From contig WRAN01000010.1 in assembly GCA_009780185.1 (NCBI GenBank), positions 6,450 to 70,449 on the forward strand: DNA of 64,000 nucleotides, written 5' to 3'. This document shows, in pieces, positions 9,063 to 59,039 of this stretch. Position numbers and translations under genes: made by a program. The notes under the pieces are model-generated. The model made no database searches. It had not been told where the DNA came from and was given only the letters and a program-made list of their open reading frames with translations. The DNA is from Defluviitaleaceae bacterium (GTDB lineage: Bacteria; Bacillota; Clostridia; Lachnospirales; WQUN01). Numbering within the stretch: position 1 is the first letter of the stretch; each line of letters opens with the position of its first letter.

Positions 9063-9115
9063 TCTACAACATTCTTCAAAAATCATAACATGATATACAT
9101 AAGGGAGACTGGATT

Positions 9116-10453: not shown

Positions 10454-10454
10454 C

Positions 10455-11201: not shown

Positions 11202-11232
11202 CAGTGCCTTTCCCTCATAAGTACTAAAACCA

Positions 11233-11276
11233 AAACCTCCATCATACAGTAACGTATGACCAGATGGAGGTTTTTT
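11233..11276 (+). terminator. Rho-independent terminator closing cassette A
   Basis: AACCTCCATC ... GATGGAGGTT followed by TTTTTT. Confidence 0.75.
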
Positions 11277-11305
11277 AATGGACAAATATAAAGGAGGGCC
11301 AGGGC

Positions 11306-12874
11306 GTGGCATTTGAACTTGTAAGGGAGCAAGTCTTCCTAGATCAAAGCGTAGGTAGCGAGCAAACACAGATTATGCTTGAGGGGGATATAATAGTCCC
11401 AGACTCAAGGCCGGATATGGCTGTGCTTTTGCAGACAGAAGAAAAAATAATCATAGACCGTACAGAAGTAGGTGCAGACAGGGTCAACTTCGTAGGCCGG
11501 CTTAATATTTCCCTGCTATACATATCCAAAGGCCCAGAACAGCAAGCCTGCGCCGTAAATCTTACTCGCCAGATAGATGACTTTATCAATGTAGACGGAG
11601 TAACAAAGGATATGTGGGTCAATGCGAAAGCAGAAATCACCCATATAGATTACCGGATGCTAAATGACCGCAAAGTAAATTATCGTGCCATTGTAACCGT
11701 TAATATTAACGCAGAACGGTCGGATGCCCACGAAATGGTCGTACATATCCATGATGTGCCGGAAAATCAGCTCCTTAAAAATAATATTAATATCAACCGT
11801 ACAATAGAGCATAAACAGGAGCGCTTCCCTGTAAAGGACTCTCTGCTATTGCCATCCAGCAAGCCCAATGTACGGGAGATATTATTAGTTACTGCCAATA
11901 TCACCAACAGAGATATCCGTATCAATAATGGCAGGGTCAATTTAAGCGGTGAAATCTTAGTAACCACCTTATATCGCGGCGATACAGACGACAGCGTAAT
12001 AGAATTTGTAGAGAGCGAGATACCTTTCAATGGCCCAATAGATGTATCAGGCGCAAAGGATGATATGCTTGCAGATGTGCTTCTACAGGTAATGGATCAT
12101 CATGTAGTAGTACGCTCAGACGACGATGGAGAAGACAGAGTGCTGGAAATTGAAGTGTCTGTAGGGGTGCAGATGAAGGTCTACAGCACAGAAGTACTGC
12201 CTATTTTGGAAGATGCATATGTAATCAACCAGCGTCTGACTTTGGGTAAAACTCTAGTGCGCTACCCGCGGTTGGTATGTCTAAACCGCAACCAAGCACC
12301 TATTAAAGAAGTAGTAACATTAGGTGGCAATGCGCCCAGTATGCTTCAAGTGTTCCGCGTAAAAGGCAACGCCTACCTGGACGAAGTAAAAGTAATAGAG
12401 GATAAAGTGGTAGTAGAAGGGGCAATCACCACTGATATTCTATATGTAGCAGAAAGCGATTCGGCACCGCTGGGCAGCTTCCGCACGGTTATGCCATTTA
12501 GGCAGGTAATTGAAGCAAAAGGCGCACGCCCCAATATGAGAGTAAATGTAGATACTTCTATAGATCATGTGGCCTTTAGTATGCTAAGCGGCCAAGAAAC
12601 GGAAGTCCGGTTCCTTCTTACATTTAATACCCAAGTAATAGAAGAAGAAGAGACTCGGATTATACACAATATAGAGTTCGCGGATTTAGAGCCGGAAGCG
12701 CTGGCTAATATGGCCAGTATGACGGTGTATATTGTGCAGCATGGGGATAATCTTTGGAAGATTGCGAAGAAATATAATACCGCTATCGACGAGCTGCTGG
12801 CAGTCAACGATATCGAGCATCCCGGCAAGATTGTACCGGATCAAAAGCTTTTGATACTTAAAAAGGGTTTATAG
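11306..12874 (+). CDS. DUF3794 (SPOCS)-type repeat protein with a C-terminal LysM domain (spore-coat/cortex-associated type)
   Basis: GTG start behind AAAGGAGGG. C-terminal LysM: YIVQHGDNLWKIAKKYNTAIDELLAVNDIEHPGKIVPDQKLLI. Confidence 0.75.
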   Translation: MAFELVREQVFLDQSVGSEQTQIMLEGDIIVPDSRPDMAVLLQTEEKIIIDRTEVGADRVNFVGRLNISLLYISKGPEQQACAVNLTRQIDDFINVDGVTKDMWVNAKAEITHIDYRMLNDRKVNYRAIVTVNINAERSDAHEMVVHIHDVPENQLLKNNININRTIEHKQERFPVKDSLLLPSSKPNVREILLVTANITNRDIRINNGRVNLSGEILVTTLYRGDTDDSVIEFVESEIPFNGPIDVSGAKDDMLADVLLQVMDHHVVVRSDDDGEDRVLEIEVSVGVQMKVYSTEVLPILEDAYVINQRLTLGKTLVRYPRLVCLNRNQAPIKEVVTLGGNAPSMLQVFRVKGNAYLDEVKVIEDKVVVEGAITTDILYVAESDSAPLGSFRTVMPFRQVIEAKGARPNMRVNVDTSIDHVAFSMLSGQETEVRFLLTFNTQVIEEEETRIIHNIEFADLEPEALANMASMTVYIVQHGDNLWKIAKKYNTAIDELLAVNDIEHPGKIVPDQKLLILKKGL

Positions 12875-28539: not shown

Positions 28540-29499
28540 CTACCACAACGAAGTTTCAGTAGTTTTTTTGCTAATCCTATTGGTGCCCCATACAAATATT
28601 AACGCAATAAGGGAGTTGAATAATCCAACCGCCGACGCAAAAGAGAAGTTGGTTTGGTGAATACCTGTTCTAAATACAAATGTTGCAATAACATCAGCGT
28701 TGGGGCGTGTAGCTTCGTTGCCCAAGAGGAAGTTGCGCTCGAAATCTGAATCCATGATAGAACCCATGCGCAAAATAAGCATGATAATAATTGTAGGCAT
28801 AATAGACGGCAATGTAACATGAAGTAACTGTTTCATCTTACCGGCTCCGTCTATAATCGCGGCCTCATAAAGTTGCTGGTCAACCCCAGCTATAGCTGCC
28901 AGGAAAATAATTGAACCAAAACCTACAGTAGACCAAATATTGGACAGCGTGAAAATAGTCCTATAGTACTCAACCCTACCCAGAAAATTTATCGGATCTC
29001 GACCCATTGACCTAAATAACTGCCCTATGGGTCCCATAGTAGGTGAAAGGATAGATGTTATTAATGAAACCACAACAACTGTTGATATAAACCATGGCAA
29101 ATAGCTGATAGTCTGTACAATGCGCTTAAACTTCATATTGCGTAACTCATTAATCATAAGCGCTAAAATAATAGGCGCTGGAAAAACAAAGATTATCCCG
29201 TAGATACTTAAAACAACTGTATTGACAACTACATTCCAGAATCTAGGGTCTGTAAGAAAATTGCGAAAGTGCGCAAGCCCAACCCAGTTACTGCCCGCAA
29301 AACCTAAGAACGGGCGGAAATCTTGAAAGACTATTAAAAGCCCCCACATAGGCAGGTATCTGAAAACAACAAAGTATATGAACACTGGCAAAAATAAGAG
29401 ATAAAGAAATCTGCGCCTGTAGATTCTTTGCCATAGTCTATTACGCTTTTGCTTTTTTACACTTGGTTCCTTTATGGCTGAACTTACTGCTGATGCCAT
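28540..29499 (-). CDS. Sugar ABC transporter permease (LplB-like)
   Basis: Contains FQDFRPFLGFAGSNWVGLAHFRNFL. EAA loop: YEAAIIDGAGKMKQLLHVTLPSI. Confidence 0.88.
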   Translation of the reverse strand: MASAVSSAIKEPSVKKQKRNRLWQRIYRRRFLYLLFLPVFIYFVVFRYLPMWGLLIVFQDFRPFLGFAGSNWVGLAHFRNFLTDPRFWNVVVNTVVLSIYGIIFVFPAPIILALMINELRNMKFKRIVQTISYLPWFISTVVVVSLITSILSPTMGPIGQLFRSMGRDPINFLGRVEYYRTIFTLSNIWSTVGFGSIIFLAAIAGVDQQLYEAAIIDGAGKMKQLLHVTLPSIMPTIIIMLILRMGSIMDSDFERNFLLGNEATRPNADVIATFVFRTGIHQTNFSFASAVGLFNSLIALIFVWGTNRISKKTTETSLW

Positions 29500-29837
29500 A
29501 TATTAAACTCCCTTTCCTGTGTTTCATTGGGGTGATTTCATAGTGCTTACAATCATTGCCATGTGAGATATGTGCAAACATAGGTGAAATGCCTTAAGCT
29601 TACTGTCACAGTATACGGTAAAATCCTATAATGTCAATAAATTTTCATTTTACCCTTCCAGGAAAATTTATGACATATTTTGAATGGTTATGGTGTGAAA
29701 GTGAGGTTGTTGGCGGGATAGTTGCAAGAAGTTAATATGATTATGTGTAAAAATAGGCAGATCATACTTGCATAACATACTGCCAGTATGAAATACTATG
29801 CCTGTAAAATTACAACAAAACAGGAGGAGGCATTAGA

Positions 29838-31166
29838 ATGAATACTTTAACTCTAGGCGAGAAACTCAAAGAAATAAGAACCGCACAGGGCTTATCTCAA
29901 GACCAAGTAGCAAGAGCCGTTAAAAAATACAAGTCTGATATCAGTCGCTTTGAAAGTGGGCAAGCAGAGCCAAACCAAGATGTGTTAGAGGCCATAAGGA
30001 AGTTTCTTAATATTAGCAATGCCCCGCTACTGCCTCCGGAGTTAGAATTATATAAAGACCGCCTGGCAATATGGGAAGAACTGCTGGACGCTAACAGAAA
30101 CGACGAAGCAAGAACCATGCAGCCAGAGATGGCGAGTATATTAACTCTACCATACGAATATGACCTAATTTTTCAATATATGATGCAAGAGAGCCGACTG
30201 CTGTTTAAAGAAAGAAACCTTTCTAGTATGGCAGCAAGCATGGAGGCTGCTGAGGCACTGCTGGATAATGTAAGCATTAAGGCTCTTTATTTGTATCACA
30301 ACAATAAAGGTTTACTTTACGATATTAATGGTAAATACAAAAGTGCGTTAAATCATTATTTAACGGCGGTTGATCTATTAGGCAGCGATAGGCCAGATTA
30401 CAGAATACTTATGAATATAGCTAGAGTGTATTGTCAGCTGGGCAAGCTGCATTGCGCTATCCGATATGCAGAGTGCGGTAAGCGCGAGTTTCGTGGGGAT
30501 CGAACTAACAAAGATGGAGTGAATTTGAACTTTCTTTTGGCTGATTTATATTCGCATGTTTATGAGTTTGATAAATCTGAGAAAATGTTTAATATTGTCA
30601 TTCAACATGCCAGAAGCATTGACGATAAATTTGCATTGGGTGCGGCTTTAGCCTGTTTAGGAAATATAAATCGGTTACGAAAAAATTATAGTGAAGCGTT
30701 GGGGCGGCTTAATCAGGGATTAGAGATTATAGAGAAACTTGTTATTACAAGCGACAACTGGCGTCGTGATGCCTACAGTCTCACCTATGCACTTTTGACC
30801 ATGATATTCGCTAAAGTGTCCTGTATCATGCGAATGAATAAATCCGATAAGAACAAAAAAGAGTGCCAGGAAGTTATTGCTTTAGGAAGGTCCTATGCCC
30901 AAGGAAATGAAACTTTAACAATTATAATCAATGCTATATCCCATTTAACAACCCTCGACAATCCTGAATCTACACGCTACATTGAGGATGTAGCAATACC
31001 ATACATTATAAACCACTTGCACAGCGAAGCATCTGAGAAAACCTTGGTTTTGGCATTTTGCAGAGAGCTTGTGGAACATTACGAAAAGAAAAAGGCCAAA
31101 ACCAAGCTGGCTAAAATTAAAGCAATAATGTGTGATATATATGAAGATATGTTTTTAGGGGGGTAG
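29838..31166 (+). CDS. XRE-family HTH transcriptional regulator with a TPR-like C-terminal domain (RNPP-like architecture)
   Basis: RBS AGGAGGAGG. Contains LGEKLKEIRTAQGLSQDQVARAV (HTH_3). Helical repeats with A/L/Y periodicity continue to the C-terminus. Confidence 0.8.
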   Translation: MNTLTLGEKLKEIRTAQGLSQDQVARAVKKYKSDISRFESGQAEPNQDVLEAIRKFLNISNAPLLPPELELYKDRLAIWEELLDANRNDEARTMQPEMASILTLPYEYDLIFQYMMQESRLLFKERNLSSMAASMEAAEALLDNVSIKALYLYHNNKGLLYDINGKYKSALNHYLTAVDLLGSDRPDYRILMNIARVYCQLGKLHCAIRYAECGKREFRGDRTNKDGVNLNFLLADLYSHVYEFDKSEKMFNIVIQHARSIDDKFALGAALACLGNINRLRKNYSEALGRLNQGLEIIEKLVITSDNWRRDAYSLTYALLTMIFAKVSCIMRMNKSDKNKKECQEVIALGRSYAQGNETLTIIINAISHLTTLDNPESTRYIEDVAIPYIINHLHSEASEKTLVLAFCRELVEHYEKKKAKTKLAKIKAIMCDIYEDMFLGG

Positions 31167-31290
31167 GCATTTCTTGCATACTGACTTTAAAAAGCGTTGT
31201 AGTAAAAATAGAAATTGATAAAAAATTTTATTAAAACCCTTAAATTTTTTTCAACAAAGCATAACTGTTTCCCAAAATAAAGAGCATTTA

Positions 31291-31327
31291 TCCCTCTGGA
31301 TACCTAAATCCCGAGGGATTTTTTTTG
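31291..31327 (+). terminator. Rho-independent terminator after the HTH-TPR regulator
   Basis: TCCCTCTGGA ... TCCCGAGGGA (imperfect stem) followed by T8. Confidence 0.65.
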
Positions 31328-31422
31328 TGTAAAACTGCCGCATCCAGAAACCTTTTTTTATTGTGAAATCGTTTAGCAGTGGTTATCTTAAGCTCTATCT
31401 TTGTATAAAGGAGTGTTATTTG

Positions 31423-34400
31423 ATGATCTTAGTTAAGCGATGCAAAAAAAATCCACACAACAGATTTGTGCAGATTAAGCGTGTGCTGTTACTGTTTAGT
31501 TTGCTGACAGTTCTGGTAGTGGTAGTTACAGTACTGGCTTATGACGATTATAGTCGGTATTCCCTGTATGAGTTTATGGACAGTGTAACCCCATATGAAA
31601 CTTACATAGAGAGTTGCAATGAGTATGAGGCAAAACATAACGGAGACGATGATGCCTATACAAGTTTTTATAACGAGCCTGAAGATGGTTATACGTCATG
31701 TTCTGAGTATAGTCAATATAATGACTTTAACCCCGAGCATGGGCAGATAAATGAGGAGCCTTACTATAATTATGATGACGAAGACCTTTATATCCCTGAT
31801 ATTACACCGGGGCTTATTGTTAATATATCCGCTGATGATGTAGGCAATATCACCATATACCCTTATATGCCATATAGCGTTGTATTGGATGACAGGGGTT
31901 ATATTCACATCAGCATCCCTGTGGGGCTTGAAAAAGAGAATGTAGGGATTTCTTTACCCTTTTATGGCTGGACATATGAGATAACCCATGAGACTCAACC
32001 AGAGTCAGCAACATATACCATAGTCTCAATTGCGCACACATGGAACAGTGGCGGTTATGTTAATTTTATGCCGCTTGTTATAAATTCACCTTATGGTACA
32101 CCATTTCCTATTAATCCTGGCGCTACCCCATTGGATTGGATTACTGCTATTGGGTCTGCTTTAGATGGAAATCGTGTGATAAGTGTACAAGGCGATGTTG
32201 CAATGCCTAGTAGCACTACCTTTAGTATTTCCGGAAGCAGGAGTGTCATCATTGCCAGCAATGACACCGATTTATCAGATCATACTCATCCCAGCACTCC
32301 ATTTACGATATCGCGTCTTCCTGGTGCTGGAGGTAATGGGCGACATTTTACTGTAAGCGGTGGTGCCACATTAACTCTAAGCAATATTGTACTTGATGGA
32401 AACAGATTTGCTACAACACTTGTAACACGTGGTGGCATAGTTGTTGATAACGCAAACTTGGTTATGCAGTCAGGCAGTGCTATTTTCAACTGCTTTGCAG
32501 AAACTAATGGAGGCGCTATCGAGGTTTACAATGGGTCTTTCGTTATGTATGGGGGCACAATCGGCCATACTAACCTCAATTATGGTAATCGTGCCATCAG
32601 AGGGGGTGGAGTGTGGATTTCCGGCAATGGTGCAAGCTTTCGGATGGATAGCGGCTCGATAATAGGTAACATTGCACAGCAAGTCGGAAACGTCCTCACC
32701 GGAGGCGGCGGTGTGTGGGTAGACAATGGTGCCGATTTCACGATGAATTATGGCCATATCCGTGATAATGAAGTACGGATTGAGCATCCCGTTGGGCACG
32801 GTACTGGTGGTGGTGGCGTATTTGTTACAGGCACCGGTGGAAATATAGATACATCATTTACCATGCATGATGGTCTTATTACAAATAACCACGTAATCGC
32901 TGTTACAGCGGTTGACGGTGATGGTGGTGGTGGCGTAAAAGTTCATGACAACGGTCATTTTATCATGAACGGTGGTGCCATAAGTATCAATCATGCCCCT
33001 CATGGCGGCGGGGTACGTGTAAGGGGTCTTAACGTGCCAGATTCCGAAAACCCCAACCCTTCCTTTGTTATGACCGGCGGATTTATTGAGGATAATGTTG
33101 TACCGGGAAATGGCGGCGGAGTACATATAGCCCAAACCATCTTCACGATGGATGTCGGCGCTGATGGCGCTGGTGGCACAATACGCCGCAATACCGCACT
33201 TATCGGCGGCGGGGTGCGAGTGGTTGGCACGACAACTCTTAATATGCATAGTGGCACAATTTCTTCTAACATTGCTGCCGGTTCTGGTGCCTCCGGTGGC
33301 GGACTTCATGTGCAGGGTGCGAACGCAAGGTTTAATATGTACGGCGGTGTAGTAGGTGGTGACACCTCTATGTATGCTAACACTGCGCCAACCGGCGCTG
33401 GCATGCATATATCCGGCGGTGCGAGAGTTGTTATGTGTGAAGGTATGCTTTATGGGGAACCCACAAGAGGTACAATTGCGCATAACATAGCTACTGGTAC
33501 CGGCGGCGGTGTACTATTGGCCGGTGTTGCTCCTGGGAGCAATATTCCTAGTATGTTTGATTTAAATGCTGGATATGTTCGCAATAATGCCGCCGGAGGC
33601 GGAGCGGGAGTACGTGCTCAAGGGCAAAGCAGATTTACTATGCGTGGCGGCGAGATTCATACAAACCACTCCACTGCCCAGGGGGGAGGAGTAGCTCTTG
33701 CGGATAATGGTACAGCTTTTATTTTGCGCGGCGGTCAAATCCATAATAACGAAGCTACTCCTGCCGGTGCCAGTGGCGGTGGTGGTGTGCGTGTGTTTGC
33801 GAATAGCAGCTTTAGTATGCACGATGGTCGCATCTTTAATAACAGCGCGTCAGCCGGAAGCGGAGGCGGCGTAAACTCAGCCGGCAATTTTACAATGTAT
33901 GGCGGTCAAATCTATGGTAACCGAGCTGCGGTTAATGGAGGCGGTGTGTTTCATGACTCGCCTGCCGCCTTCAACATGCATGGCGGCGTAATCGGCGGCC
34001 CCGCAGATAGCGAAGGTATACCCATCCCTGCCAATGCCAACACAGCCGTAAACGGTGCCGGCGTATGGGTCGCCAGTGGAAGAACCTTCATTATGGCTGA
34101 CTTTGTAGACAGTTACGGTGTTGTACATCCCGCTATGCGCCATATTGAGGGTAATCGTGCAACAGGCACGGCGGCTAACCAAGGCGGCGGCGGTGTATGG
34201 GTGGCGGGTAACGCCAACTTTACAGCGGATGGTGCCCAAATTATCTATAACACAGCCGCAGGCATGGGAGGCGGTATATTCTCCGCAGCCCCAGCCTATG
34301 AATACGCAAGTCCGCTAACACGTATTTCAGGCCCTGATACAGCCTTTGGCAATCTTAATCTTACTAACATAGAGTTCTTTGGTAATAGGGCTTATGCCTT

Positions 34401-52482: not shown

Positions 52483-53052
52483 GTGGTTTCCATCGAAGAT
52501 AGTAATATTCTTGAGTTATTTTGGACCAAGGATGAATCGGCTATTGAAATTTCTCGTAGAAGATATGGGAGGAGCTTGCATAAGGTGGCCTATAATATTT
52601 TAGCGGATAATCAGGATGCGGAGGAAGTTGTTAGTGATACATTGCATCGGGCTTGGGAGGCCATCCCTCCTAAGAAGCCGGAGTTTTTTGGGGCCTATCT
52701 TTTTAAGATTGCCCGGAACTTGTCACTAAAGCGCTGGCGGGCTGCTGGGGCGGCTAAGCGCGGCGGCTCTCAGGCTGACTTATTGCTTAGCGAACTTGGG
52801 GATGCGATACCTCTTAATGAGACTGTGGAGGATAGATTTGAATATTCGGAGACGGTTAAGGCTATCAATGATTGTCTTCGAGGGATGGGCGCCACTAACC
52901 GAGTGGTATTTGTCCGGCGGTACTTCTTTGGGGATAGTATCTCGGATTTGTGCAATCAATTTTATTTTAGTGAAAGTAAGATTAAGTCTATTTTGTACCG
53001 GGCGAGGCTAAATCTTCGTGGGCATCTTGAGAAAGAAGGGGTGATTATATGA
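52483..53052 (+). CDS. RNA polymerase sigma-70 family (ECF-type) sigma factor
   Basis: Region 2 (DAEEVVSDTLHRAWEAI, YLFKIARNLSLKRWR) and region 4 (VVFVRRYFFGDSISDLCNQF...SILYRARLNLR). GTG start with a weak RBS. Confidence 0.8.
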   Translation: MVSIEDSNILELFWTKDESAIEISRRRYGRSLHKVAYNILADNQDAEEVVSDTLHRAWEAIPPKKPEFFGAYLFKIARNLSLKRWRAAGAAKRGGSQADLLLSELGDAIPLNETVEDRFEYSETVKAINDCLRGMGATNRVVFVRRYFFGDSISDLCNQFYFSESKIKSILYRARLNLRGHLEKEGVII

Positions 53053-55223
53053 GTAATTCTGGATTAGAAAAAAGAGAAAAATTGCTTGCCTGTTTTGAGG
53101 GTATTGATGATGATATTGTAGCGGAAGCGGCTGAGGCTATTGGTGCTACGAAAAAATCCCGCCCTTATTGGTTATCATGGGGCAATGTTGCTGCTGTGCT
53201 TATTGGTGCAGTGGCGGTGAGCTGTGTTGTAATATTGGCATTCTTGCTTGGTAGCTCTGGGATAGGGGAAGTGCCGGCAGATAATGGAGATGGTTACTAT
53301 GAAGGCTCCCAGGTAGAGGAAACTCCAGCCCAGGAGACCCCAGTACCCATAGACTTGATAGAAAACGGTGATTTGCTGCCACTGCCTCGTGTCCATGAAT
53401 CACAGTTTCTTGCGATTCTTGAAGATGGACGCAGTCATATGACTGTAAATAATCCATGGCTTTATCATGAAAATGCTAGGCAGATAGATAATTTGCCCGT
53501 ATTCCGCCATCATACAGCAGTGATTAACGGGGAACTGACAGAAGATGATTCTGATGCAATCCGGAGAAATATTAATTATTTTAAGAATAGATTAATGGCT
53601 ATTGCCTCCGGCTTTCCTGTCTTGGACTTGGATGATGTTGACCCGCAAGAGTTTATGGATCTCTGGCCGGAGGGACTTACTGCATTTTTGCATTGGTCTG
53701 AGCCAAGCTTATTTGTACGTCTTACCCTCCCTGAAAGTATTATGGTGTTACCAATCGGGGCAGGCCTTGGTCACGGGGTAACAGATGAAGAGATCCAGGT
53801 AGCTATTGAGTATCTGGCCGAATTTTTTACTGTAGCCAACTCGATGGAAGTCCCTACTCTTGCCCAGGCAGAGCACTCACTTGATATGGGTGGCCCTAGG
53901 ATATACACGCGCCATAGATATTTTGATTCGGGGGGGAGTATCCTTGATGCTATCCTTGCTTTCAATTTTGAATGGGTAGAGGTTTTTACCTTTGAGCCGG
54001 AGCATACGCAGTGGGTGTGGATGTATATGTCTACATTCCCTCAAGGCAGATTCGAGTCGCTTCAATTGGGAAATTTCCCAATAATTACGTCAGAAGAAGC
54101 TCGCGAGATGCTTCTGCAAGGATATTTTATTTCCGAGCGCACAGATGCCGAATGGCCGGGCCGGGAGGCTGCTTTAGCATCTTCTGTGGAACTTGTATAC
54201 CGAAATGCTATGGACTCTGAAATAGTAATGCCATTTTATCGTTTTCTTATAGAAACTGACTTGCCTATATGGGCCGCGGATCAGCCTGGTGAATGGCGAG
54301 CCTATGCGCGGTATTATGTACCTGCCGTCCATCGGGATTATCTTGAACCTATCGCGCGGCGGGCAATGCCTGAACCGGATGCGCCGCCAACGGGTTCACG
54401 AGCTTTGCCTCCTCATATTTTTAGAGCAATCCAGGGGGAATGGTGGGCGCCGCTGCGTGTACCTCGTCATCAAGTGGAAGAGTTATGGCAGGAGGTTATG
54501 GATGATATTGGGGAGCTTGGGGTAGATGAAGCTTATCAATTTCGTACTGCATGCGGTAATTATGCTCTTATTACCGGTGCGCGTACCCTCATTGGCATAG
54601 AAGAGCTTAGGCGATACTACCCTCATTTGGATTTGCCTGAAAATGTGGGGGATTTTACGCTTCGTGAAGTCTTTGTAAATGACCGATCTGGCAATATGAT
54701 AATCTCGTATCGCCCTATGTCCCCTCTGGAGCAAATTTTTCATGGATTAGGGCTTTCGGAAGAAAATCCGCCTCCTGTGGGTGAGATTTTTACTCGTGAC
54801 TTATCTATAGAAGATACCAGTATTGCATCTGCTTTTTATGCTGTGTATGAAAATAGCGAAGGTGTGCAGGTGAGTTTAGGTGTGTCGGCTTTGTTTTTTG
54901 ATTTGTCGTCAGGGCTTCCTGATGGGTCTGGATTCTTGGATATGGGGGAATATGGGGAGATTCACTTCCCAGGGGATTCTGAGATTTATTATGCAGCTAT
55001 GTACCAACCCACAGACCCGTGGATGGGATTTGCTGTTGAACTTTGGTTTTTGGGCGGTTCTGTCAGCGATAGGATTAATTATTTAGATTTACGGTATAGC
55101 TATGATAGGATTAGTCACTTGTTTATCCCTGTACCTCGTGAGGATTTAGAGGAGCTGGTGCGGCTGTTTAATCCGGCGGCGCTTGCACTGGAGTATCAGT
55201 GGGATTTGATGCCTTGGCAGTAG
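53049..55223 (+). CDS. Putative anti-sigma factor: short cytoplasmic N-terminus, one TM, ~650-aa extracytoplasmic domain of unknown fold
   Basis: ATGA overlap with the sigma gene stop. TM is WGNVAAVLIGAVAVSCVVILAFLL. Confidence 0.6.
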   Translation: MSNSGLEKREKLLACFEGIDDDIVAEAAEAIGATKKSRPYWLSWGNVAAVLIGAVAVSCVVILAFLLGSSGIGEVPADNGDGYYEGSQVEETPAQETPVPIDLIENGDLLPLPRVHESQFLAILEDGRSHMTVNNPWLYHENARQIDNLPVFRHHTAVINGELTEDDSDAIRRNINYFKNRLMAIASGFPVLDLDDVDPQEFMDLWPEGLTAFLHWSEPSLFVRLTLPESIMVLPIGAGLGHGVTDEEIQVAIEYLAEFFTVANSMEVPTLAQAEHSLDMGGPRIYTRHRYFDSGGSILDAILAFNFEWVEVFTFEPEHTQWVWMYMSTFPQGRFESLQLGNFPIITSEEAREMLLQGYFISERTDAEWPGREAALASSVELVYRNAMDSEIVMPFYRFLIETDLPIWAADQPGEWRAYARYYVPAVHRDYLEPIARRAMPEPDAPPTGSRALPPHIFRAIQGEWWAPLRVPRHQVEELWQEVMDDIGELGVDEAYQFRTACGNYALITGARTLIGIEELRRYYPHLDLPENVGDFTLREVFVNDRSGNMIISYRPMSPLEQIFHGLGLSEENPPPVGEIFTRDLSIEDTSIASAFYAVYENSEGVQVSLGVSALFFDLSSGLPDGSGFLDMGEYGEIHFPGDSEIYYAAMYQPTDPWMGFAVELWFLGGSVSDRINYLDLRYSYDRISHLFIPVPREDLEELVRLFNPAALALEYQWDLMPWQ

Positions 55224-55234
55224 TATGTAAATAG

Positions 55235-55283
55235 AAAGCCGAACCTAGCCGACAAATGTTATCGGTGAGGCTCGGCTTTTTTT
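55235..55283 (+). terminator. Rho-independent terminator
   Basis: AAAGCCGAACCT ... AGGCTCGGCTTT followed by a T-run. Confidence 0.7.
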
Positions 55284-55284
55284 G

Positions 55285-55293
55285 TGATATAAT
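55285..55293 (+). promoter_or_regulatory. Extended -10 element ending 6 nt before the ATG of cassette B gene 1
   Basis: TGATATAAT lies 55285-55293 and the ATG at 55300. There is no Shine-Dalgarno sequence in between. Confidence 0.4.
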
Positions 55294-55299
55294 GGTTGT

Positions 55300-56472
55300 A
55301 TGAGATATATGGAAAAGTTATTTTGTCCCCATAGAGCAAAGCCATTTACAATAAGTAAGCGTAAAGTCAAACTTGACAGCAATATAAAGCGGTGGAGATT
55401 TGAGTTTGATACAGGCAACGGACAACTTACTGGAAGGCAATTGGCACAGCTATATAGTGCAGTTAGCACATTTTTGGATAAGTACAACTCAGGCATGTAT
55501 ATATTTGCTTTGAATATGAGAACTTTTGACTTTCAGGACAAAAATGTCTATATTTTTTTGGAACTGTTGGCATACTATATTTTAAAGCATGGGAAGTTTA
55601 CTTTTGAAGTCTTTTTTGATCAACCTGCGTTTTACATGTTGGAGTCTGTGGGATTTCAAAATACAGCGTTGTATAGGTTTATGATGAATCAGGGGATATT
55701 AAAATATATTGAAAATAAAACGGATTTCATAAGCTTTTACGAAAATCCTCAACATTTGACCGATAAATGGTACCGGAGAGTCTTGAACAGTGATGCCATT
55801 GCAGTGGGAAATATATCAGGTCAGATTGCAGAAGAAGTCGAATCCTTTCTAAAAAGGTATGATATTCCTCACTCTACGACGGTAAACACATATAGTGTAG
55901 TACTTGAGCTGATATCGAACGCAAAACATAATGATGGAGACTGTATATTAGATATTGACATCTGTAATAATGTTATTAATATGTCATTTATCAACCTTTT
56001 TGATGGTAGGATGTTTGATAAGCTGGGTTTCATGTATAGAGATGATAAGCTTTTTCAGAATGTTCAAGAAAAGATACACATGGCTATTGGGTACCATAGT
56101 TTACATTTTGGAGATATGTATACAGAGGATGATTTTTACTTTATATCTACCTTCCAGGAGGGAATCACAACTCGTCTCGAGCCAAGTGGAGGCACAGGAC
56201 TTACAACAGTTGTTAATGCAATTGCGGAAGAAGATGAGAATGCCTACTCCTATGTATTAAGTGGCAATAACCTATTGTTTTTGCGCAAAAGCTTCTTAGG
56301 CGATGGTGGAAGTATTGTAGGATTTAATAAAACAAACGATTATTTTAGAGATATACCCGAAAGGAGTATAATTGATAGGTGTCAGCTATACATACCCGGA
56401 GTGGTATTTCAACTAGTATTTAGTTTTGGGGTGAGTGATAATGGAAAAAGAAAAAATTATGCTGGAGTTTGA
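55300..56472 (+). CDS. GHKL-superfamily ATPase-like protein, cassette B gene 1 (390 aa)
   Basis: N-box-like VVLELISNAKHND. G2-like PSGGTGLTTV. No obvious His-kinase dimerisation/phosphoacceptor region. Very AT-rich. Confidence 0.6.
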   Translation: MRYMEKLFCPHRAKPFTISKRKVKLDSNIKRWRFEFDTGNGQLTGRQLAQLYSAVSTFLDKYNSGMYIFALNMRTFDFQDKNVYIFLELLAYYILKHGKFTFEVFFDQPAFYMLESVGFQNTALYRFMMNQGILKYIENKTDFISFYENPQHLTDKWYRRVLNSDAIAVGNISGQIAEEVESFLKRYDIPHSTTVNTYSVVLELISNAKHNDGDCILDIDICNNVINMSFINLFDGRMFDKLGFMYRDDKLFQNVQEKIHMAIGYHSLHFGDMYTEDDFYFISTFQEGITTRLEPSGGTGLTTVVNAIAEEDENAYSYVLSGNNLLFLRKSFLGDGGSIVGFNKTNDYFRDIPERSIIDRCQLYIPGVVFQLVFSFGVSDNGKRKNYAGV

Positions 56473-56737
56473 AAACAAGTATTCAAAGATTGGTGACTTC
56501 GACTACGGAAAAGATATATACGAGCAACAAGCAAAAGACCGTGTTGTTTTCGATGGCGAAAATATTATCGCGTTTCCTGACTACGTAGACTTCGTATCTC
56601 CATCTTTTATTCAAGGATTTATAGCTGTACCTATTGGCAATGTAGGAAAAGAGAATGTCTTAGAGTACATTAGCTTTGAATCCCCGCGAAGTGAAGTAGT
56701 TAAGCAGATTTACAACGGCTTACGCAGAGCTATGTGA
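56441..56737 (+). CDS. STAS-like (DUF4325-type) small protein, cassette B gene 2
   Basis: ATG lies behind GGGGTGAG and overlaps the gene 1 end. VVFDGENIIAFPDYVDFVSPSFIQGFI resembles the DUF4325 'LDFxGVxxxsxSFxxEf' core. Confidence 0.5.
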   Translation: MEKEKIMLEFENKYSKIGDFDYGKDIYEQQAKDRVVFDGENIIAFPDYVDFVSPSFIQGFIAVPIGNVGKENVLEYISFESPRSEVVKQIYNGLRRAM

Positions 56738-56747
56738 GGATATCGTT

Positions 56748-57257
56748 ATGGAGTATGGGGAGCTTGTAGGGGTAGTTATAAATGCATCAGAGGGTACGTC
56801 TTTAATGTCATATATCCATATGATAGGCTCGCTAATGTGGATGGGGCTTTCTGCTATAGCAATGATTATTTTCTCTGTGAAAAATTATAAGATGAGCGAG
56901 TCTTATAATAAAAAGACATTGAAGAATCGTGTTTTTGATAGGGTCTTTCAAAAGGTGATTGAGGATAGTCTAATTAAGCTGGCTGATATAATTCCTGCAA
57001 TCTCAGATTTTAATTTTGACGAATTTAAAGATGTTCTGGAGTCTTTTACTGTGGGTATAGAGGTATATAAGTATCATGATAAGCCTTTTTATGAAGAAAT
57101 TTGGGATTTAGTTTATAAGATAACAGACGATATTATCAAAATTGAAAACGCTACAAGTTCGTCTAGTAAATCAAAATGGTTTGCATCTTTGGAAAGTCAT
57201 ATTCAAAAAATATTTGACGTTATTGAAAGGTATTGTACAGACTTAGATGCGAATTAG
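56748..57257 (+). CDS. Hypothetical single-pass membrane protein, cassette B gene 3 (169 aa)
   Basis: TM is IHMIGSLMWMGLSAIAMIIFSV, followed by a helical soluble domain. No family motif recognised. Confidence 0.6.
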   Translation: MEYGELVGVVINASEGTSLMSYIHMIGSLMWMGLSAIAMIIFSVKNYKMSESYNKKTLKNRVFDRVFQKVIEDSLIKLADIIPAISDFNFDEFKDVLESFTVGIEVYKYHDKPFYEEIWDLVYKITDDIIKIENATSSSSKSKWFASLESHIQKIFDVIERYCTDLDAN

Positions 57258-57280
57258 ATAACACTATTTTTGCACAAAGT

Positions 57281-57315
57281 AAGCCCCCGTGAGGTTCGTC
57301 TCGCAGGGGCTTTTA
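57281..57315. terminator. Bidirectional terminator between convergent genes
   Basis: AAGCCCCCGTGAG ... CTCGCAGGGGCTTTT. Confidence 0.65.
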
Positions 57316-57335
57316 TATTGTATGATAGAGATCAA

Positions 57336-59039
57336 TTAATGATTAACGGCATTAATATCCCGCTTATTATAGAAGTAAAACCCGGCAGCGGTAAGGGCAA
57401 TTGCAATCATGACCTTAACTGCCATAGTAATCCAGTTAATCTCTTCAAGTGGCAGAAGCGGCACCCATCCAAAGGGTGTTGTACGGGCTACCCAGCTTGG
57501 AAAGATATCTATCCGGCCAAACATATCCATAAAGAAGGAGTAGCCAAGGTATCCCCAGATGAAGCCGGTTGCTTTGGGAAGTAAGCCTACTAGAAGGACG
57601 GTTATGCCCACCATAATCCACAGGGCGGGTACAAATACTAAAGCTGACCTTAGTACGAAGCTGATGGACAAGTCACCTGGGTTTACTAACGTTGTTGTGG
57701 CTACAGCGTACATTCCAAGGGCTACAGCGGCTTGTAATAGTATTGCCGATATCATGGCAATGGCTACAAACCCGGCTAGGTACTTAGTGCGGCTTACGGA
57801 GGCGGCTAGTACCAGCTCTGTACGGATGTCTTTTTCCTCTGATTTGGCCTTTGTGGTGAACACAATAAGGGCGGCTAGGCCCATTACTGCCATCATTCCG
57901 TTGATAAAGCCTGAGAACATTTCTGCTACGGTGACGCCTGCCGCACTTAGTGCTTGGTTCATAATGGCAATGGCTTCATCTACAGGCAAGCCTTCTAATA
58001 CGCTAATGTCCATAAAAGGGCCTAGTATCAGGGTCTGGTACATTTCATTGCTGGCGACAAAGGATTCTATATCTGCAAGTACTGCGCCATATGTGCCGCC
58101 TAGGATAAACATGCCTACGACTATCATGATTATTGTAAAGCGCTGGAGCCGGAAGGTTAAACCGGGGGCAGATTTTAGTAAGAAACCGCCATCTGCTTTG
58201 CCTGGTTTTGCTGGGATCATGCCCTGATCTATGTCTCTGATGGAGGTCAGGTAGAAGGCTGCTGCCGCTACAACAGCAGTTGTGCCAAGCATTATCCAAA
58301 TGGGCCACCAGTTGTTTTGAATATATACTTGAGTGCGCAATATAAGCCCGAGTGGGCTGATTAGTGCAACCCATTCTAAATCTGTATTCATGTCGCCTAT
58401 AGCCCGCACTAAGTACAGAACTATCAGTGTGACGAAGGAATAGGCCATAACGCTGCGAGTGATTGCGGATAGCTGGCAAAGCAGTGCTGTAAGTGCCGCA
58501 AATACAAGACCGGTAACGCCCAGGCCAACACCCCATAACATTGAGCCTGCAAGGCACATGTATGTGTCTCCCACCATTCCGCCTAGGTACATAGCAAGTC
58601 CCATGGTAATGGCTAAGATGCCGTTGATAATCAAGGCTGTAATCATGGCGGCATTAATATTGGCAAGCCTTCCTAGAGGAAGAGAGCGCACAACTTCGTA
58701 GCGCCCCTTTTCCTCGTCTGCCCTGGTGTGGCGTACTATTAAGAAGATGTTCATAATGCCTACCGTTAGCGCAACGAATACAAACATTAGGTTGGCATAT
58801 ACTGCCCCAAATGTAGGATTTTCTGCGGCAAAGACCGGGCCGGCCATAGCTACCATTGCAGGGTTTTCAAATACGCTTATAAGTTCTAATCTGGCGTAAT
58901 AATCCAGAGCTGTGTACATGCCCGGTACCAGCCCGGCAACAATTATTAACAGCAGCACAATCCATACGGCGGAGGTGATGCGTTCCCGCCTTAGCATAAA
59001 GCGGGTTAGCTGCAAACTATTTTCGAATAATCCTTTCAT
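57336..59039 (-). CDS. ABC-2-type exporter permease (about 12 TM segments, fused double module)
   Basis: 567-aa polytopic protein directly downstream of the ATPase gene. Confidence 0.8.
   Translation of the reverse strand: MKGLFENSLQLTRFMLRRERITSAVWIVLLLIIVAGLVPGMYTALDYYARLELISVFENPAMVAMAGPVFAAENPTFGAVYANLMFVFVALTVGIMNIFLIVRHTRADEEKGRYEVVRSLPLGRLANINAAMITALIINGILAITMGLAMYLGGMVGDTYMCLAGSMLWGVGLGVTGLVFAALTALLCQLSAITRSVMAYSFVTLIVLYLVRAIGDMNTDLEWVALISPLGLILRTQVYIQNNWWPIWIMLGTTAVVAAAAFYLTSIRDIDQGMIPAKPGKADGGFLLKSAPGLTFRLQRFTIIMIVVGMFILGGTYGAVLADIESFVASNEMYQTLILGPFMDISVLEGLPVDEAIAIMNQALSAAGVTVAEMFSGFINGMMAVMGLAALIVFTTKAKSEEKDIRTELVLAASVSRTKYLAGFVAIAMISAILLQAAVALGMYAVATTTLVNPGDLSISFVLRSALVFVPALWIMVGITVLLVGLLPKATGFIWGYLGYSFFMDMFGRIDIFPSWVARTTPFGWVPLLPLEEINWITMAVKVMIAIALTAAGFYFYNKRDINAVNH

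What the first reader, a model, noticed from the sequence alone, without database searches (positions are those of the whole stretch)
55285..57315. GHKL-ATPase + STAS-like (DUF4325-type) + single-pass membrane protein cassette, possibly leaderless
Seen in the sequence: three + strand ORFs (390, ~98 and 169 aa) are bracketed by terminators (55235-55283 and 57281-57315). They are much more AT-rich than the flanks: 15 G+C in 55501-55560 against 33 in 54301-54360. Gene 1 has GHKL-like N-box (ELISNAKHND) and G2-like (SGGTGLTTV) motifs but no recognisable His-kinase phosphoacceptor region. Gene 2 overlaps the gene 1 end and resembles STAS-like DUF4325 proteins. Gene 3 has one TM helix and an unknown soluble domain. 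An extended -10 (TGATATAAT) ends 6 nt before the gene 1 ATG and there is no SD, so the mRNA may be leaderless. Inference: a partner-switch-like ATPase/STAS pair coupled to a membrane protein, in a clearly accessory context. GHKL ATPases are recurrent in prokaryotic conflict systems, and I cannot assign this trio to a named system.
Basis: partly seen in the sequence, partly recalled or inferred. Interest (0 to 1): 0.7.

Follow-up and report, generated by a model that had tools for sequence, protein, structure and literature searches.

The report
Kinase–STAS–membrane protein candidate defence cassette
A small, AT-rich, horizontally mobile three-gene cassette (a divergent SpoIIAB-like GHKL protein, a DUF4325/STAS protein and a single-pass membrane protein) recurs on prophages and plasmids of Firmicutes and looks like an undescribed, membrane-acting cousin of the recently characterised VapKSC anti-phage toxin-antitoxin system.

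Summary
In detail: the three ORFs, both terminators, the AT-richness (lowest-GC segment of the 64-kb window) and the TGATATAAT element 6 nt before the ATG are all present. Gene 1's C-terminal half folds as a SpoIIAB/RsbW-type Bergerat (GHKL) domain. Gene 2 belongs to DUF4325 (STAS-like) through orthologues that pass Pfam's threshold. Gene 3 is an N-out/C-in single-pass membrane protein of no known family. The trio is kept in order, tightly coupled, in all 17 gene 1-bearing loci that extend far enough downstream to show it (down to about 23% gene 1 identity). These include a Butyricicoccus prophage (after the endolysin), phage contigs, Lactococcus/Enterococcus/Lachnospira plasmids next to R-M and Abi genes, and chromosomal islets. 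Nothing matches PADLOC. The closest known system is VapKSC (EMBO J 2026): a STAS-GHKL kinase, a DUF4325 antitoxin with an invariant Ser, and a PIN toxin. Here a membrane protein replaces the PIN, the kinase is not detectably related to VapK in sequence, and its G1-box Asp is Asn. My best model is that the kinase phosphorylates gene 2 on Ser55 and releases a membrane effector (abortive infection or exclusion). Function is inferred, not shown. A leaderless start is supported by comparison across loci. Verdict: new variant of a known kind.

The parts
55233..55283 (+). Intrinsic terminator of the upstream ECF-sigma/anti-sigma-like operon. It insulates the cassette from read-through.
   Evidence: Hairpin of -23.9 kcal/mol, z = -4.85, followed by a U7 tract; inverted repeat I1.
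55285..55293 (+). Extended -10 promoter element TGATATAAT. The predicted transcription start is at or next to A55300 of the ATG, which would make the mRNA leaderless.
   Evidence: Read from the sequence. Only 16 nt separate the terminator U-tract from the ATG and there is no SD. A -10 hexamer at the same 6-7 nt distance occurs in 5 of 6 close homologous loci against a 3.2% background, and 4 of 6 have TTGnnn at 17 nt. The transcription start itself was not measured.
55300..56472 (+). Gene 1 (390 aa): N-terminal alpha/beta domain (aa 1-150, STAS-like order of elements, unassigned) plus a C-terminal SpoIIAB/RsbW-type GHKL domain (about aa 155-378). This is the predicted Ser kinase/sensor.
   Evidence: AF2 model and Foldseek. 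The family has 389 cluster representatives, nearly all about 380 aa. Weak HATPase_c_2/HATPase_c hits occur in 10 of 52 members.
55300..55755 (+). Gene 1 N-domain (aa 1-152), with element order b-b-a-b-a-b-a-a. D80 (50/52) lies at the N-cap of helix 2. F78 aligns, though not significantly, with the ssDNA-sensing F54 of VapK.
   Evidence: Separate AF2 model, pLDDT 83. The best Foldseek hit is the STAS protein RsfB (8ih8_A), but with E = 0.33 and TM 0.34-0.44 this is inconclusive. hhalign results; conservation.
55906..55920 (+). N-box of the GHKL domain (E203...N207, within ELISNAKHND).
   Evidence: E203, N207 and H210 are invariant in 52/52. They lie on helix 191-210 of the model.
55993..55995 (+). 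N232: Asn at the position of the adenine-binding Asp of the canonical G1 box (DxGxG).
   Evidence: Asn in 49/52, Ser in 2, Asp in 1. It sits at the end of the second strand after the N-box helix and is aligned to VapK D190. The assignment is by alignment, not by structural superposition.
56188..56202 (+). G2 box (G297-G298-T-G300-L301).
   Evidence: G298 and G300 are 52/52 and L301 is 49/52.
56441..56737 (+). Gene 2 (98 aa): DUF4325/STAS-like protein, the predicted phospho-acceptor and adaptor (antitoxin-like). It overlaps the gene 1 end by 32 nt and has an SD-like GGGGTGA upstream.
   Evidence: Orthologues pass or approach PF14213. VapS is itself DUF4325 at 62.7 bits. hhalign against VapS gives P = 4.8e-4.
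56603..56605 (+). Codon of Ser55 of gene 2, the predicted phosphorylation site.
   Evidence: It is the only Ser/Thr invariant in 12/12 gene 2 homologues. It lies within one residue of VapS S48 in the profile alignment. SpoIIAA S58, CapS S54 and VapS S48 occupy the equivalent place (PMC13373217).
56748..57257 (+). Gene 3 (169 aa): single-pass membrane protein (TM aa 26-44, nt 56823-56879) with a cytoplasmic helical domain of about 120 aa carrying an F-x-K/Y-F/Y-x-D/N-x-x-F-Y motif. This is the predicted effector. GAGGA SD upstream.
   Evidence: Hydropathy and the positive-inside rule: K+R count of 2-6 after the TM against 0-2 before it, in 11/11 homologues. Alignment A6. No match in Pfam, PDB or PADLOC.
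57281..57318 (.). Bidirectional intrinsic terminator shared with the convergent ABC-2 permease gene (57336-59039, - strand).
   Evidence: -20.3 kcal/mol (z = -3.9) on the + strand and -22.8 kcal/mol (z = -4.7) on the - strand.

Best explanation
This is a self-contained, horizontally mobile three-gene module that works as a kinase-gated toxin-antitoxin-like (abortive infection or superinfection exclusion) system. It follows the logic shown experimentally for VapKSC but has a membrane effector. Shown: gene 1 carries a SpoIIAB/RsbW-type GHKL domain; gene 2 is a DUF4325 STAS-like protein with one invariant serine; gene 3 is an N-out/C-in single-pass membrane protein; the three are always together, in this order, translationally coupled, AT-rich relative to their hosts, and carried by prophages, phage contigs and plasmids next to R-M and Abi genes. 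Inferred: in uninfected cells the STAS protein binds and holds in check the cytoplasmic helical domain of the membrane protein. A phage- or damage-derived cue (in VapK/CapK it is ssDNA) is sensed by gene 1, probably through its N-terminal domain. The GHKL domain then phosphorylates gene 2 on Ser55. The phosphorylated gene 2 protein lets go of gene 3, which oligomerises and compromises the membrane, stopping phage growth. In the window's subfamily the operon is probably transcribed from a promoter whose -10 lies 6 nt before the ATG, giving a leaderless gene 1 message, while genes 2 and 3 use SDs and coupling.
For: Fold: SpoIIAB 1l0o_A at E = 2.7e-4 and TM 0.68 (target-normalised), and RsbW, UsfX and SiaB all at probability 1.0; a phage HATPase protein in BFVD. 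Active-site motifs E203, N207, G298 and G300 are 52/52. Gene 2 is DUF4325, and the characterised antitoxin VapS is a strong DUF4325 member (62.7 bits). S55 is invariant in 12/12. The gene order kinase-STAS-effector and the tight coupling (gaps of -32 to +14 nt and -13 to +26 nt in most loci) match vapKSC. The trio is conserved in all 17 loci that show it. Mobile and defence contexts: after holin/endolysin in a Butyricicoccus prophage, before the terminase genes in a phage contig, after a holin-like gene in a phage contig, next to hsdS on L. cremoris pG327, near AcrIIA9, Fic and Abi genes on an E. faecium plasmid, near an Abi gene on the L. eligens plasmid, next to a PLD-helicase-DUF3427 gene, and near an AAA_15/AAA_21 ATPase. 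Cassette GC is below locus GC in 13/13 loci. The gene 3 soluble domain is cytoplasmic, so it is reachable by gene 2. The VapKSC mechanism and about 2-log phage protection are from PMC13373217.
Against: There is no experimental data for this family; toxicity, phosphorylation and phage protection are all inferred. Gene 1 is not detectably related to VapK in sequence (hhalign P = 0.006, probability 6%). Its N-domain is not significantly STAS-like (E = 0.33). The canonical adenine-binding Asp is Asn in 49/52 members, which in other GHKL proteins would be expected to impair ATP binding (established knowledge of Hsp90 and GyrB mutants), so kinase activity is uncertain. Gene 2 lacks the C-terminal helix that VapS uses to inhibit VapC (98 against 116 aa). 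Gene 3 has no similarity to any known toxin or pore-former and could instead be an anchor or sensor. In this window no other defence gene lies within 10 kb. No PADLOC model matches, which means unlisted rather than non-defence.
Confidence: 0.55

Rival explanations
1. This is a partner-switching regulatory module serving the carrier element or the host rather than defence. The GHKL/STAS pair would control a membrane protein involved in, for example, lysis timing (holin/antiholin-like control), lysogenic conversion or envelope stress signalling.
For: The fold class is that of the anti-sigma partner-switch kinases. In three phage contexts the trio abuts lysis or packaging genes. In the window and in L023 an ECF sigma gene lies nearby.
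Against: No sigma factor, PP2C phosphatase or holin is conserved with the trio across the 17 loci. In the window a strong terminator separates the cassette from the ECF sigma operon. The same trio sits on plasmids and chromosomal islets with no phage lysis genes. Its AT-rich, patchy, mobile distribution next to Abi and R-M genes is typical of conflict systems.
Confidence: 0.15
2. The parts are the same but the roles differ. Gene 3 is a membrane anchor or sensor (for example detecting phage DNA injection or envelope damage), and gene 1 is the effector through its unassigned N-domain or its ATPase activity, with gene 2 as an adaptor or inhibitor of gene 1.
For: Gene 3 has no recognisable toxic domain. 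Gene 1 carries many family-specific invariant residues outside the nucleotide site (H266, Y274, F279, Q286, F342, N343, P353) and an unassigned N-domain with a near-invariant D80. Membrane-anchored sensors are common in exclusion systems (general knowledge).
Against: In the one characterised analogue the third gene is the toxin and the STAS protein its antitoxin. Gene 1's N-domain shows no nuclease, protease or other effector fold. The STAS/GHKL pairing elsewhere is always kinase-substrate.
Confidence: 0.12
3. This is a pure addiction (post-segregational killing) module that stabilises plasmids and prophages and has no anti-phage role.
For: It has a TA-like organisation and is carried on plasmids and prophages.
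Against: It also occurs as chromosomal islets, including this window. A kinase-gated trigger is more elaborate than classical addiction modules need. VapKSC protects against phage. The two roles are not mutually exclusive.
Confidence: 0.08
4. Gene 1 is a pseudokinase or uses a ligand other than ATP. Because the G1 Asp is replaced by Asn, it would act as a nucleotide-dependent or ligand-dependent clamp that binds and releases gene 2 without phosphotransfer, much as SpoIIAB-ADP sequesters SpoIIAA.
For: N232 replaces the adenine-contacting Asp in 49/52 members and the GxG of the G1 box is absent.
Against: The Mg-binding N-box Asn, the Glu, the G2 glycines and the gene 2 serine are all invariant, which is hard to explain without phosphoryl chemistry. 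An Asn side chain can still hydrogen-bond a purine.
Confidence: 0.07

Closest known systems
VapKSC anti-phage toxin-antitoxin system (Chambers et al., EMBO J 2026, PMC13373217)
   Same: Both are three-gene operons in the order GHKL kinase, small STAS protein, effector. The STAS component belongs to the same Pfam family: VapS is DUF4325 at 62.7 bits, and gene 2 orthologues reach up to 40.4 bits. Both have a single invariant Ser at the start of helix 2. The kinase is a two-domain protein with an N-terminal alpha/beta domain before a SpoIIAB-like GHKL domain. Both are mobile and often defence-associated.
   Different: The effector is a single-pass membrane protein of a new family, not a PIN nuclease. 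Gene 1 (390 aa) is not detectably similar to VapK (302 aa) in sequence (P = 0.006). It has a helical insert of about 65 aa between G1 and G2 and an Asn instead of the G1 Asp, and its N-domain could not be shown to be STAS. Gene 2 lacks the inhibitory C-terminal helix of VapS. It occurs in Bacillota on prophages and plasmids, whereas the VapKSC operons examined here are from Escherichia and Deinococcus. No function has been shown.
CapK-CapS regulators of immune operons (same paper)
   Same: Both have a GHKL kinase plus a STAS substrate with a conserved Ser, associated with defence loci.
   Different: CapS carries a wHTH domain and is a transcriptional repressor, and CapK has an N-terminal HTH. 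Gene 2 has no DNA-binding domain, and no immune operon follows the cassette, which ends in a terminator.
SpoIIAB-SpoIIAA and RsbW-RsbV partner-switching modules
   Same: These are the best structural matches of the gene 1 C-terminal domain (Foldseek probability 1.0). Both are Ser-kinase-class GHKL proteins without a His phosphoacceptor, paired with a STAS partner that has a Ser at about residue 55-58.
   Different: No sigma factor or PP2C phosphatase is in the module. Gene 1 is 2.5 times larger, with an extra N-domain and inserts. The partner is DUF4325 rather than canonical STAS (PF01740/PF13466). The output is a membrane protein.
Abortive-infection and exclusion systems with small membrane effectors (for example RexAB, CBASS/Pycsar TM effectors, lactococcal Sie proteins); comparison from general knowledge, not tested
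   Same: Both involve a prophage- or plasmid-borne membrane protein as the likely executor, in moron positions next to lysis or immunity genes.
   Different: There is no sequence or profile similarity to any of them in PADLOC, Pfam or PHROGs. The trigger here is a GHKL/STAS pair rather than a nucleotide second messenger or a protein-DNA complex.

Membership tests
GHKL (Bergerat-fold) ATPase/kinase superfamily, SpoIIAB/RsbW class | Bergerat alpha/beta sandwich fold | tested here: met
   AF2 model with pLDDT 74 and pTM 0.75. Foldseek PDB: SpoIIAB, RsbW, UsfX, SiaB and CheA-P4 at probability 1.0, TM 0.55-0.68 normalised to the target. BFVD: a phage HATPase protein at E = 7e-4.
GHKL (Bergerat-fold) ATPase/kinase superfamily, SpoIIAB/RsbW class | N-box (E-x3-N) on the first long helix | tested here: met
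   E203 and N207 are invariant in 52/52 and lie on helix 191-210.
GHKL (Bergerat-fold) ATPase/kinase superfamily, SpoIIAB/RsbW class | G1 box D-x-G-x-G with the adenine-binding Asp | tested here: not met
   The equivalent position is N232 (Asn 49/52, Ser 2, Asp 1) and no GxG follows. It aligns with VapK D190. The assignment is by alignment and strand position, not superposition.
GHKL (Bergerat-fold) ATPase/kinase superfamily, SpoIIAB/RsbW class | G2 box (G-x-G-L type) | tested here: met
   G298 and G300 are 52/52 and L301 is 49/52.
GHKL (Bergerat-fold) ATPase/kinase superfamily, SpoIIAB/RsbW class | Match to Pfam HATPase_c or HATPase_c_2 above the gathering score | tested here: not met
   The window protein has no hit at E <= 1. 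Among 52 family members, 7 hit HATPase_c_2 and 3 hit HATPase_c weakly (best E about 7e-4).
GHKL (Bergerat-fold) ATPase/kinase superfamily, SpoIIAB/RsbW class | ATP binding and Ser-kinase activity | not testable with these tools
   This needs a biochemical assay.
DUF4325 (PF14213, STAS-like), for gene 2 | Match to PF14213 above the gathering score (23 bits) | tested here: inconclusive
   The window copy has no hit. Its orthologues in the same trio pass: L001 at 24.8 bits (42% identical to the window copy) and L. eligens at 40.4 bits. L018 (18.9) and L013 (16.6) are sub-threshold. Membership is therefore by transitive homology (phmmer E of 1e-12 to 1e-36 among copies).
DUF4325 (PF14213, STAS-like), for gene 2 | Conserved Ser/Thr at the N-terminus of helix 2 (the phospho-acceptor in STAS partners) | tested here: met
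   S55 is invariant in 12/12, is the only invariant Ser/Thr, and lies within one residue of VapS S48 in the hhalign alignment.
DUF4325 (PF14213, STAS-like), for gene 2 | STAS fold | not tested
VapKSC system | Three-gene operon in the order kinase, STAS protein, effector | tested here: met
   Seen in all 17 loci that show it. A bona fide vapKSC operon was inspected for comparison on Deinococcus gobiensis plasmid P5.
VapKSC system | VapK-type kinase (STAS domain plus GHKL domain, homologous to VapK/CapK) | tested here: inconclusive
   The GHKL domain is present. The N-domain has the STAS order of elements, but the best STAS hit has E = 0.33. hhalign of the family against VapK is co-linear over both domains but gives P = 0.006 and probability 6%; the template was a single sequence.
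VapKSC system | VapC (PIN-domain) toxin as third gene | tested here: not met
   Gene 3 is a single-pass membrane protein with no PIN match in Pfam.
VapKSC system | VapS C-terminal helix that blocks the toxin active site | tested here: not met
   Gene 2 proteins are 93-101 aa and end with the STAS-like core. VapS is 116 aa, with residues 94-116 required for inhibition.
VapKSC system | Protection against phage that depends on the kinase, the Ser and the toxin | not testable with these tools
   This needs experiments.
Anti-sigma partner-switching module (SpoIIAB/SpoIIAA/sigma-F type) | Cognate sigma factor (and usually a PP2C phosphatase) encoded with the pair | tested here: not met
   No sigma factor or PP2C lies inside the cassette in any locus. 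The ECF sigma upstream in the window is cut off by a terminator and is not conserved elsewhere.
Any system in PADLOC-DB v2.0.0 | HMM match of any of the three proteins | tested here: not met
   No meaningful hit for the window proteins or for diverse family members.

The most novel reading that the evidence does not exclude
This would be an unnamed abortive-infection/exclusion system of Firmicutes mobile elements. A highly divergent GHKL protein, whose adenine-binding Asp is systematically Asn (so it may use a nucleotide other than ATP or act as a non-catalytic switch), senses infection. Through a DUF4325 STAS adaptor it then unleashes a new family of single-pass membrane toxins. In one subfamily the operon is expressed from a conserved leaderless mRNA, which could keep the sensor translated when phage shut down canonical initiation.
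Probability: 0.25. Interest if true: 0.78.

Novelty: new variant of a known kind. Interest (0 to 1): 0.62.

Why it matters
If the model holds, the GHKL-kinase/STAS switch shown in 2026 to gate a PIN toxin (VapKSC) and a repressor (CapKS) would be a general, modular trigger that also gates membrane effectors. It would also extend into Gram-positive gut and dairy bacteria, on prophages and plasmids, including Lactococcus cremoris dairy plasmids and an Enterococcus faecium optrA resistance plasmid. That would add a new defence-system family (389 cluster representatives at 50% identity), give the widespread orphan domain DUF4325 a functional context, and define a new membrane-effector family. The Asn-for-Asp change in the nucleotide pocket offers a natural test of what GHKL kinases need in order to bind nucleotide. 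The conserved -10-to-ATG spacing gives a clean, testable case of leaderless expression in Clostridia.

Tried and rejected
1. Single-sequence Pfam, NCBIfam, PADLOC and PHROGs searches on the three window proteins found nothing. Phmmer and profile searches against PDB sequences for genes 1, 2 and 3 gave only chance hits.
2. The word-indexed homologue search for genes 2 and 3 returned only the query itself. Their homologues were recovered from loci instead.
With A1 it found only one GTDB genome and nothing in IMG/VR. tblastn against sequenced phages found a single unverified 6-kb contig.
The last job went to the gene 1 N-domain, so the gene 2 and gene 3 folds remain unpredicted.
5. The idea that the gene 1 N-domain is a DUF4325/STAS duplicate is not supported by hhalign against the gene 2 family or VapS (probability below 1%). 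Foldseek was inconclusive.
6. My first hhalign run used global mode by mistake and is disregarded in favour.
7. Only 2 VapK homologues turned up in plasmids, so no VapK family profile could be built.
8. Weak PDC-S05/PDC-S23 PADLOC hits of one gene 3 homologue did not generalise (1-2 of 11 members) and are treated as chance.
9. A search for att-like direct repeats flanking the cassette found nothing convincing, and there is no tRNA in the window.
10. A link to the adjacent ECF sigma operon is rejected because of the intervening terminator and the lack of conservation elsewhere.


Full report
**1.

The three + strand ORFs are as described: gene 1 at 55300-56472 (390 aa), gene 2 (98 aa from ATG 56441, inside the GTG ORF 56435-56737) and gene 3 at 56748-57257 (169 aa). 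Both bracketing terminators fold strongly. The upstream one gives -23.9 kcal/mol (z = -4.85) followed by a U7 tract. The downstream one gives -20.3 kcal/mol (z = -3.9), and it also folds on the minus strand, so it serves the convergent ABC-2 permease gene as well.

The cassette has GC 0.351 against a window mean of 0.438 (sd 0.030), and no segment of the same length anywhere in the 64 kb is lower. TGATATAAT lies at 55285-55293, 6 nt before the ATG, with no Shine-Dalgarno sequence. Genes 2 and 3 do have SD-like sequences (GGGGTGA and GAGGA).

**2. What the three proteins are**

*Gene 1.* The word-indexed search of 5.8 billion proteins found only 8 relatives; the identical one is a hypothetical protein of a Defluviitaleaceae MAG. 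A full profile search of 1.84 billion cluster representatives found 389 (256 with E <= 1e-30), nearly all full length at about 380 aa.
- An AlphaFold2 model built on 8 sequences (pLDDT 74, pTM 0.75) matches SpoIIAB, RsbW, UsfX, SiaB and CheA-P4 in the PDB at Foldseek probability 1.0 (best E = 2.7e-4, TM 0.68 normalised to SpoIIAB). In BFVD it matches a phage histidine-kinase-like ATPase.
- Ten of 52 family members weakly reach HATPase_c_2 or HATPase_c.
- The N-box (E203, N207) and the G2 glycines (G298, G300) are invariant in 52/52.
- The C-terminal ~220 residues are therefore a Bergerat fold of the Ser-kinase/anti-sigma class.

Two departures stand out.
- Residue 232 lies at the end of the second strand after the N-box helix, where GHKL proteins carry the adenine-binding Asp of the G1 box. 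Here it is Asn in 49/52 members.
- A helical insert of about 65 residues, with its own invariant residues (H266, Y274, F279, Q286), separates G1 from G2.

The N-terminal 150 residues model confidently (pLDDT 83) with the element order of a STAS domain. The best PDB match is the STAS protein RsfB, but at E = 0.33 and TM 0.34-0.44, so the assignment is inconclusive. Profile comparison with the gene 2 family or with VapS finds nothing.

*Gene 2.* The window copy is below detection. Its orthologue in locus L001 (42% identical) scores 24.8 bits against PF14213 DUF4325 (cut-off 23). The Lachnospira eligens copy scores 40.4 bits (E = 2.3e-10) and is named a DUF4325 protein by NCBI. Ser55, in the motif SPSFIQGF, is the only Ser/Thr invariant in all 12 copies examined.

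*Gene 3.* Every homologue has one N-terminal TM helix. It is followed by a basic stretch (2-6 K/R after the helix against 0-2 before it, in 11/11), so the ~110-120-residue helical domain is cytoplasmic. It carries a conserved F-x-K/Y-F/Y-x-D/N-x-x-F-Y motif. Nothing in Pfam, PDB sequences or PADLOC matches it.

**3. The trio is a conserved, mobile unit**

Every gene 1-bearing locus that extends far enough downstream to show the neighbours (17 of 17) has a 93-101-aa gene 2 and a 134-172-aa gene 3 (truncated by the contig end in L021) after gene 1, in that order. This holds down to about 23% gene 1 identity. One short contig (L011) is cut inside gene 2 and is uninformative, and L009's gene 3 keeps only the N-terminal TM helix. 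In most loci the genes overlap by a few nucleotides or are separated by fewer than 30.

| Context type | Loci |
|---|---|
| Chromosomal islets among housekeeping genes | the window; L001 (aminotransferase / MCP); L023 (purA / glycosyltransferase, with a LytTR gene upstream) |
| Butyricicoccus prophage, directly after holin and Amidase_3 endolysin at the prophage end (this protein is listed in 439 blocks of the collection) | L012-L016 |
| Phage genome just upstream of the small terminase, portal and minor-capsid genes | L026 |
| Unverified faecal phage contig, after a holin-like gene | L021 |
| L. cremoris plasmid pG327, next to a type I R-M S subunit | L018 |
| E. faecium optrA plasmid, between AcrIIA9/PcfJ and Fic/recombinase/Abi genes | L019 |
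| L. eligens 627-kb plasmid, 1.1 kb from an Abi-family gene | L020 |
| Next to NUDIX plus a PLD-helicase-DUF3427 protein | L006 |
| 2.5 kb from an AAA_15/AAA_21 ATPase | L028 |

Cassette GC is lower than locus GC in all 13 loci measured (for example 0.33 against 0.52 in Butyricicoccus). One copy is decaying: gene 1 is split in L005. No flanking att-like repeats or tRNA mark the insertion in the window. In this window the neighbours are ordinary (ECF sigma pair, ABC transporter with a TetR regulator, MreB, PBP2, tRNA methyltransferase). It is the cassette that is accessory, not the neighbourhood.

**4. Leaderless start**

The terminator's U-tract ends at 55283 and the ATG is at 55300, so any dedicated promoter must use the TGATATAAT. 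That places the transcription start at about A55300.
- Homologues share the N-terminus MRY/MKY, which supports 55300 over NCBI's M4 start.
- In the six close-subfamily loci, five have a stringent -10 hexamer ending 6-7 nt before that ATG. Four are a perfect TATAAT at exactly 6 nt. The sixth locus has TATAAA at 6 nt.
- Four of the six have TTGnnn 17 nt upstream, and none has an SD.
- The same criterion is met by 3.2% of ATGs within these AT-rich cassettes.
- More distant loci mostly have clear SDs.

The loci share ancestry, so this is not an independent-trials probability. It is still good comparative support, not proof.

**5. Closest known system**

A full-text search for DUF4325 found only three incidental mentions. 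One is a Francisella temperate phage with a 293-aa protein, a DUF4325 protein and a small TM protein between cI and integrase.

A search combining STAS and GHKL led to Chambers et al., EMBO J 2026 (PMC13373217). CapK (HTH-STAS-GHKL) phosphorylates the STAS-wHTH repressor CapS on a conserved Ser in response to ssDNA. VapKSC is a three-gene anti-phage TA system in which VapK (STAS-GHKL) is proposed to phosphorylate the antitoxin VapS on S48 and so release the PIN toxin VapC.

I took the VapS and VapK sequences from the paper's AF3 model file.
- VapS is a strong DUF4325 member (62.7 bits, E = 2.7e-17), and VapK reaches HATPase_c only weakly.
- The gene 2 family aligns to VapS with P = 4.8e-4, placing S55 within one residue of S48.
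- The gene 1 family aligns co-linearly to VapK over both domains (N-box to N-box, N232 to D190, G2 to G2, F78 to the ssDNA-sensing F54), but without significance (P = 0.006, probability 6%; the template was a single sequence).
- A genuine vapKSC operon on a Deinococcus plasmid shows the same gene order, with NCBI names 'ATP-binding', 'STAS-like' and 'PIN'.
- The paper does not mention membrane effectors, DUF4325, Firmicutes or prophage carriage, and PADLOC 2.0 has no model for any of the three proteins.

**6. Most likely mechanism (confidence 0.55)**

Shown: the domain identities, the invariant catalytic-type residues and Ser55, the cytoplasmic orientation of the gene 3 domain, strict co-occurrence and coupling, and mobile, defence-type contexts.

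Inferred by analogy with VapKSC and SpoIIAB-SpoIIAA:
1. Gene 2 binds and restrains the cytoplasmic domain of gene 3.
2. Gene 1 senses an infection- or damage-derived cue, perhaps ssDNA through the N-domain/GHKL interface.
3. Gene 1 phosphorylates gene 2 on Ser55.
4. The released membrane protein oligomerises and damages membrane integrity, aborting infection or excluding superinfecting phage.

Weak points are the Asn in the nucleotide pocket, the unassigned N-domain, the absence in gene 2 of VapS's inhibitory C-terminal helix, and the complete lack of a recognisable toxic feature in gene 3.

Rivals:
- a regulatory partner switch serving lysis or envelope functions (0.15);
- swapped roles, with gene 3 as anchor or sensor and gene 1 as effector (0.12);
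- a pure addiction module (0.08);
- a non-catalytic switch (0.07).

**7. Verdict**

It is not a member of VapKSC, because a defining feature (the PIN toxin) is absent and kinase homology is unproven. It most likely works like VapKSC with a different output, so I rate it a new variant of a known kind.

Interest is moderate to high. The existence of such variants is foreseeable from the modularity of defence systems. However, this family is undescribed, reasonably widespread on Firmicutes mobile elements, and has an unusual nucleotide pocket, a new membrane-effector family and a conserved leaderless arrangement, all directly testable.

Noticed in passing
window 55993-55995 (gene 1 N232): The GHKL G1-box Asp that contacts adenine is Asn in 49/52 family members, while the N-box and G2 box are invariant. 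This suggests an unusual nucleotide pocket (another nucleotide, or a non-catalytic switch).
   Followed up: partly
window 55300-55755 (gene 1 aa 1-152; D80 at 55537-55539): The N-domain has the STAS order of secondary-structure elements. A near-invariant Asp (50/52) lies at the N-cap of helix 2, the place where STAS proteins carry their phospho-Ser, so it could be a cis pseudo-substrate. The fold search was inconclusive.
   Followed up: partly
window 52483-55223: An ECF-type sigma factor (189 aa) has a 4-nt stop/start overlap with a 724-aa membrane protein that has no Pfam domain, which is an anti-sigma-like arrangement. A strong terminator separates this pair from the cassette.
   Followed up: no
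window about 8800-11500 and about 29300-32300: Two other low-GC patches (0.36-0.38 against a mean of 0.44) might be further horizontally acquired segments.
   Followed up: no
window 55300 vs 55309: The NCBI gene model for gene 1 (387 aa) starts at the fourth codon. The conserved MRY/MKY N-terminus of homologues argues for 55300.
   Followed up: yes
L005 7533-8711 (Eubacteriales MAG, same contig as L010): Gene 1 is split into two ORFs (115 aa and 236 aa), while genes 2 and 3 are intact, so this is a decaying copy or an assembly frameshift. A Lin1244_N phage-type gene lies upstream.
   Followed up: partly
L009 1527-2042: Gene 3 keeps its N-terminal TM helix and then reads into MATE-transporter-like sequence. 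This is either a deletion fusing it to a neighbour or a chimeric contig.
   Followed up: no
L023 7465-7893 and L025 529-915: A 128-142-aa LytTR DNA-binding protein sits directly upstream of the trio in this subfamily and may be a dedicated transcriptional regulator.
   Followed up: no
L019 (E. faecium pEF7150-3): On this plasmid the trio shares a roughly 10-kb stretch with optrA (linezolid/phenicol resistance), an AcrIIA9-family anti-CRISPR, PcfJ, Fic and an Abi-family gene.
   Followed up: no
L012-L016 4299-5276: In the Butyricicoccus prophage a tyrosine recombinase lies between variable tail-fibre-like genes (263-510 aa, differing between copies) and XkdX/holin. It may be a tail-fibre switching module.
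   Followed up: no
Francisella phage vB_FhiM_KIRK (PMC7924643, gene table): A 293-aa hypothetical protein, a 112-aa DUF4325 protein and a 125-aa TM protein lie between the cI repressor and the integrase. This is a possibly analogous trio in a proteobacterial phage; homology to genes 1 and 3 was not checked.
   Followed up: no
L006 2595-5820: A NUDIX hydrolase and a 949-aa PLDc_2/DEAD-helicase/DUF3427 protein lie immediately next to the most divergent copy of the close-subfamily trio.
   Followed up: no
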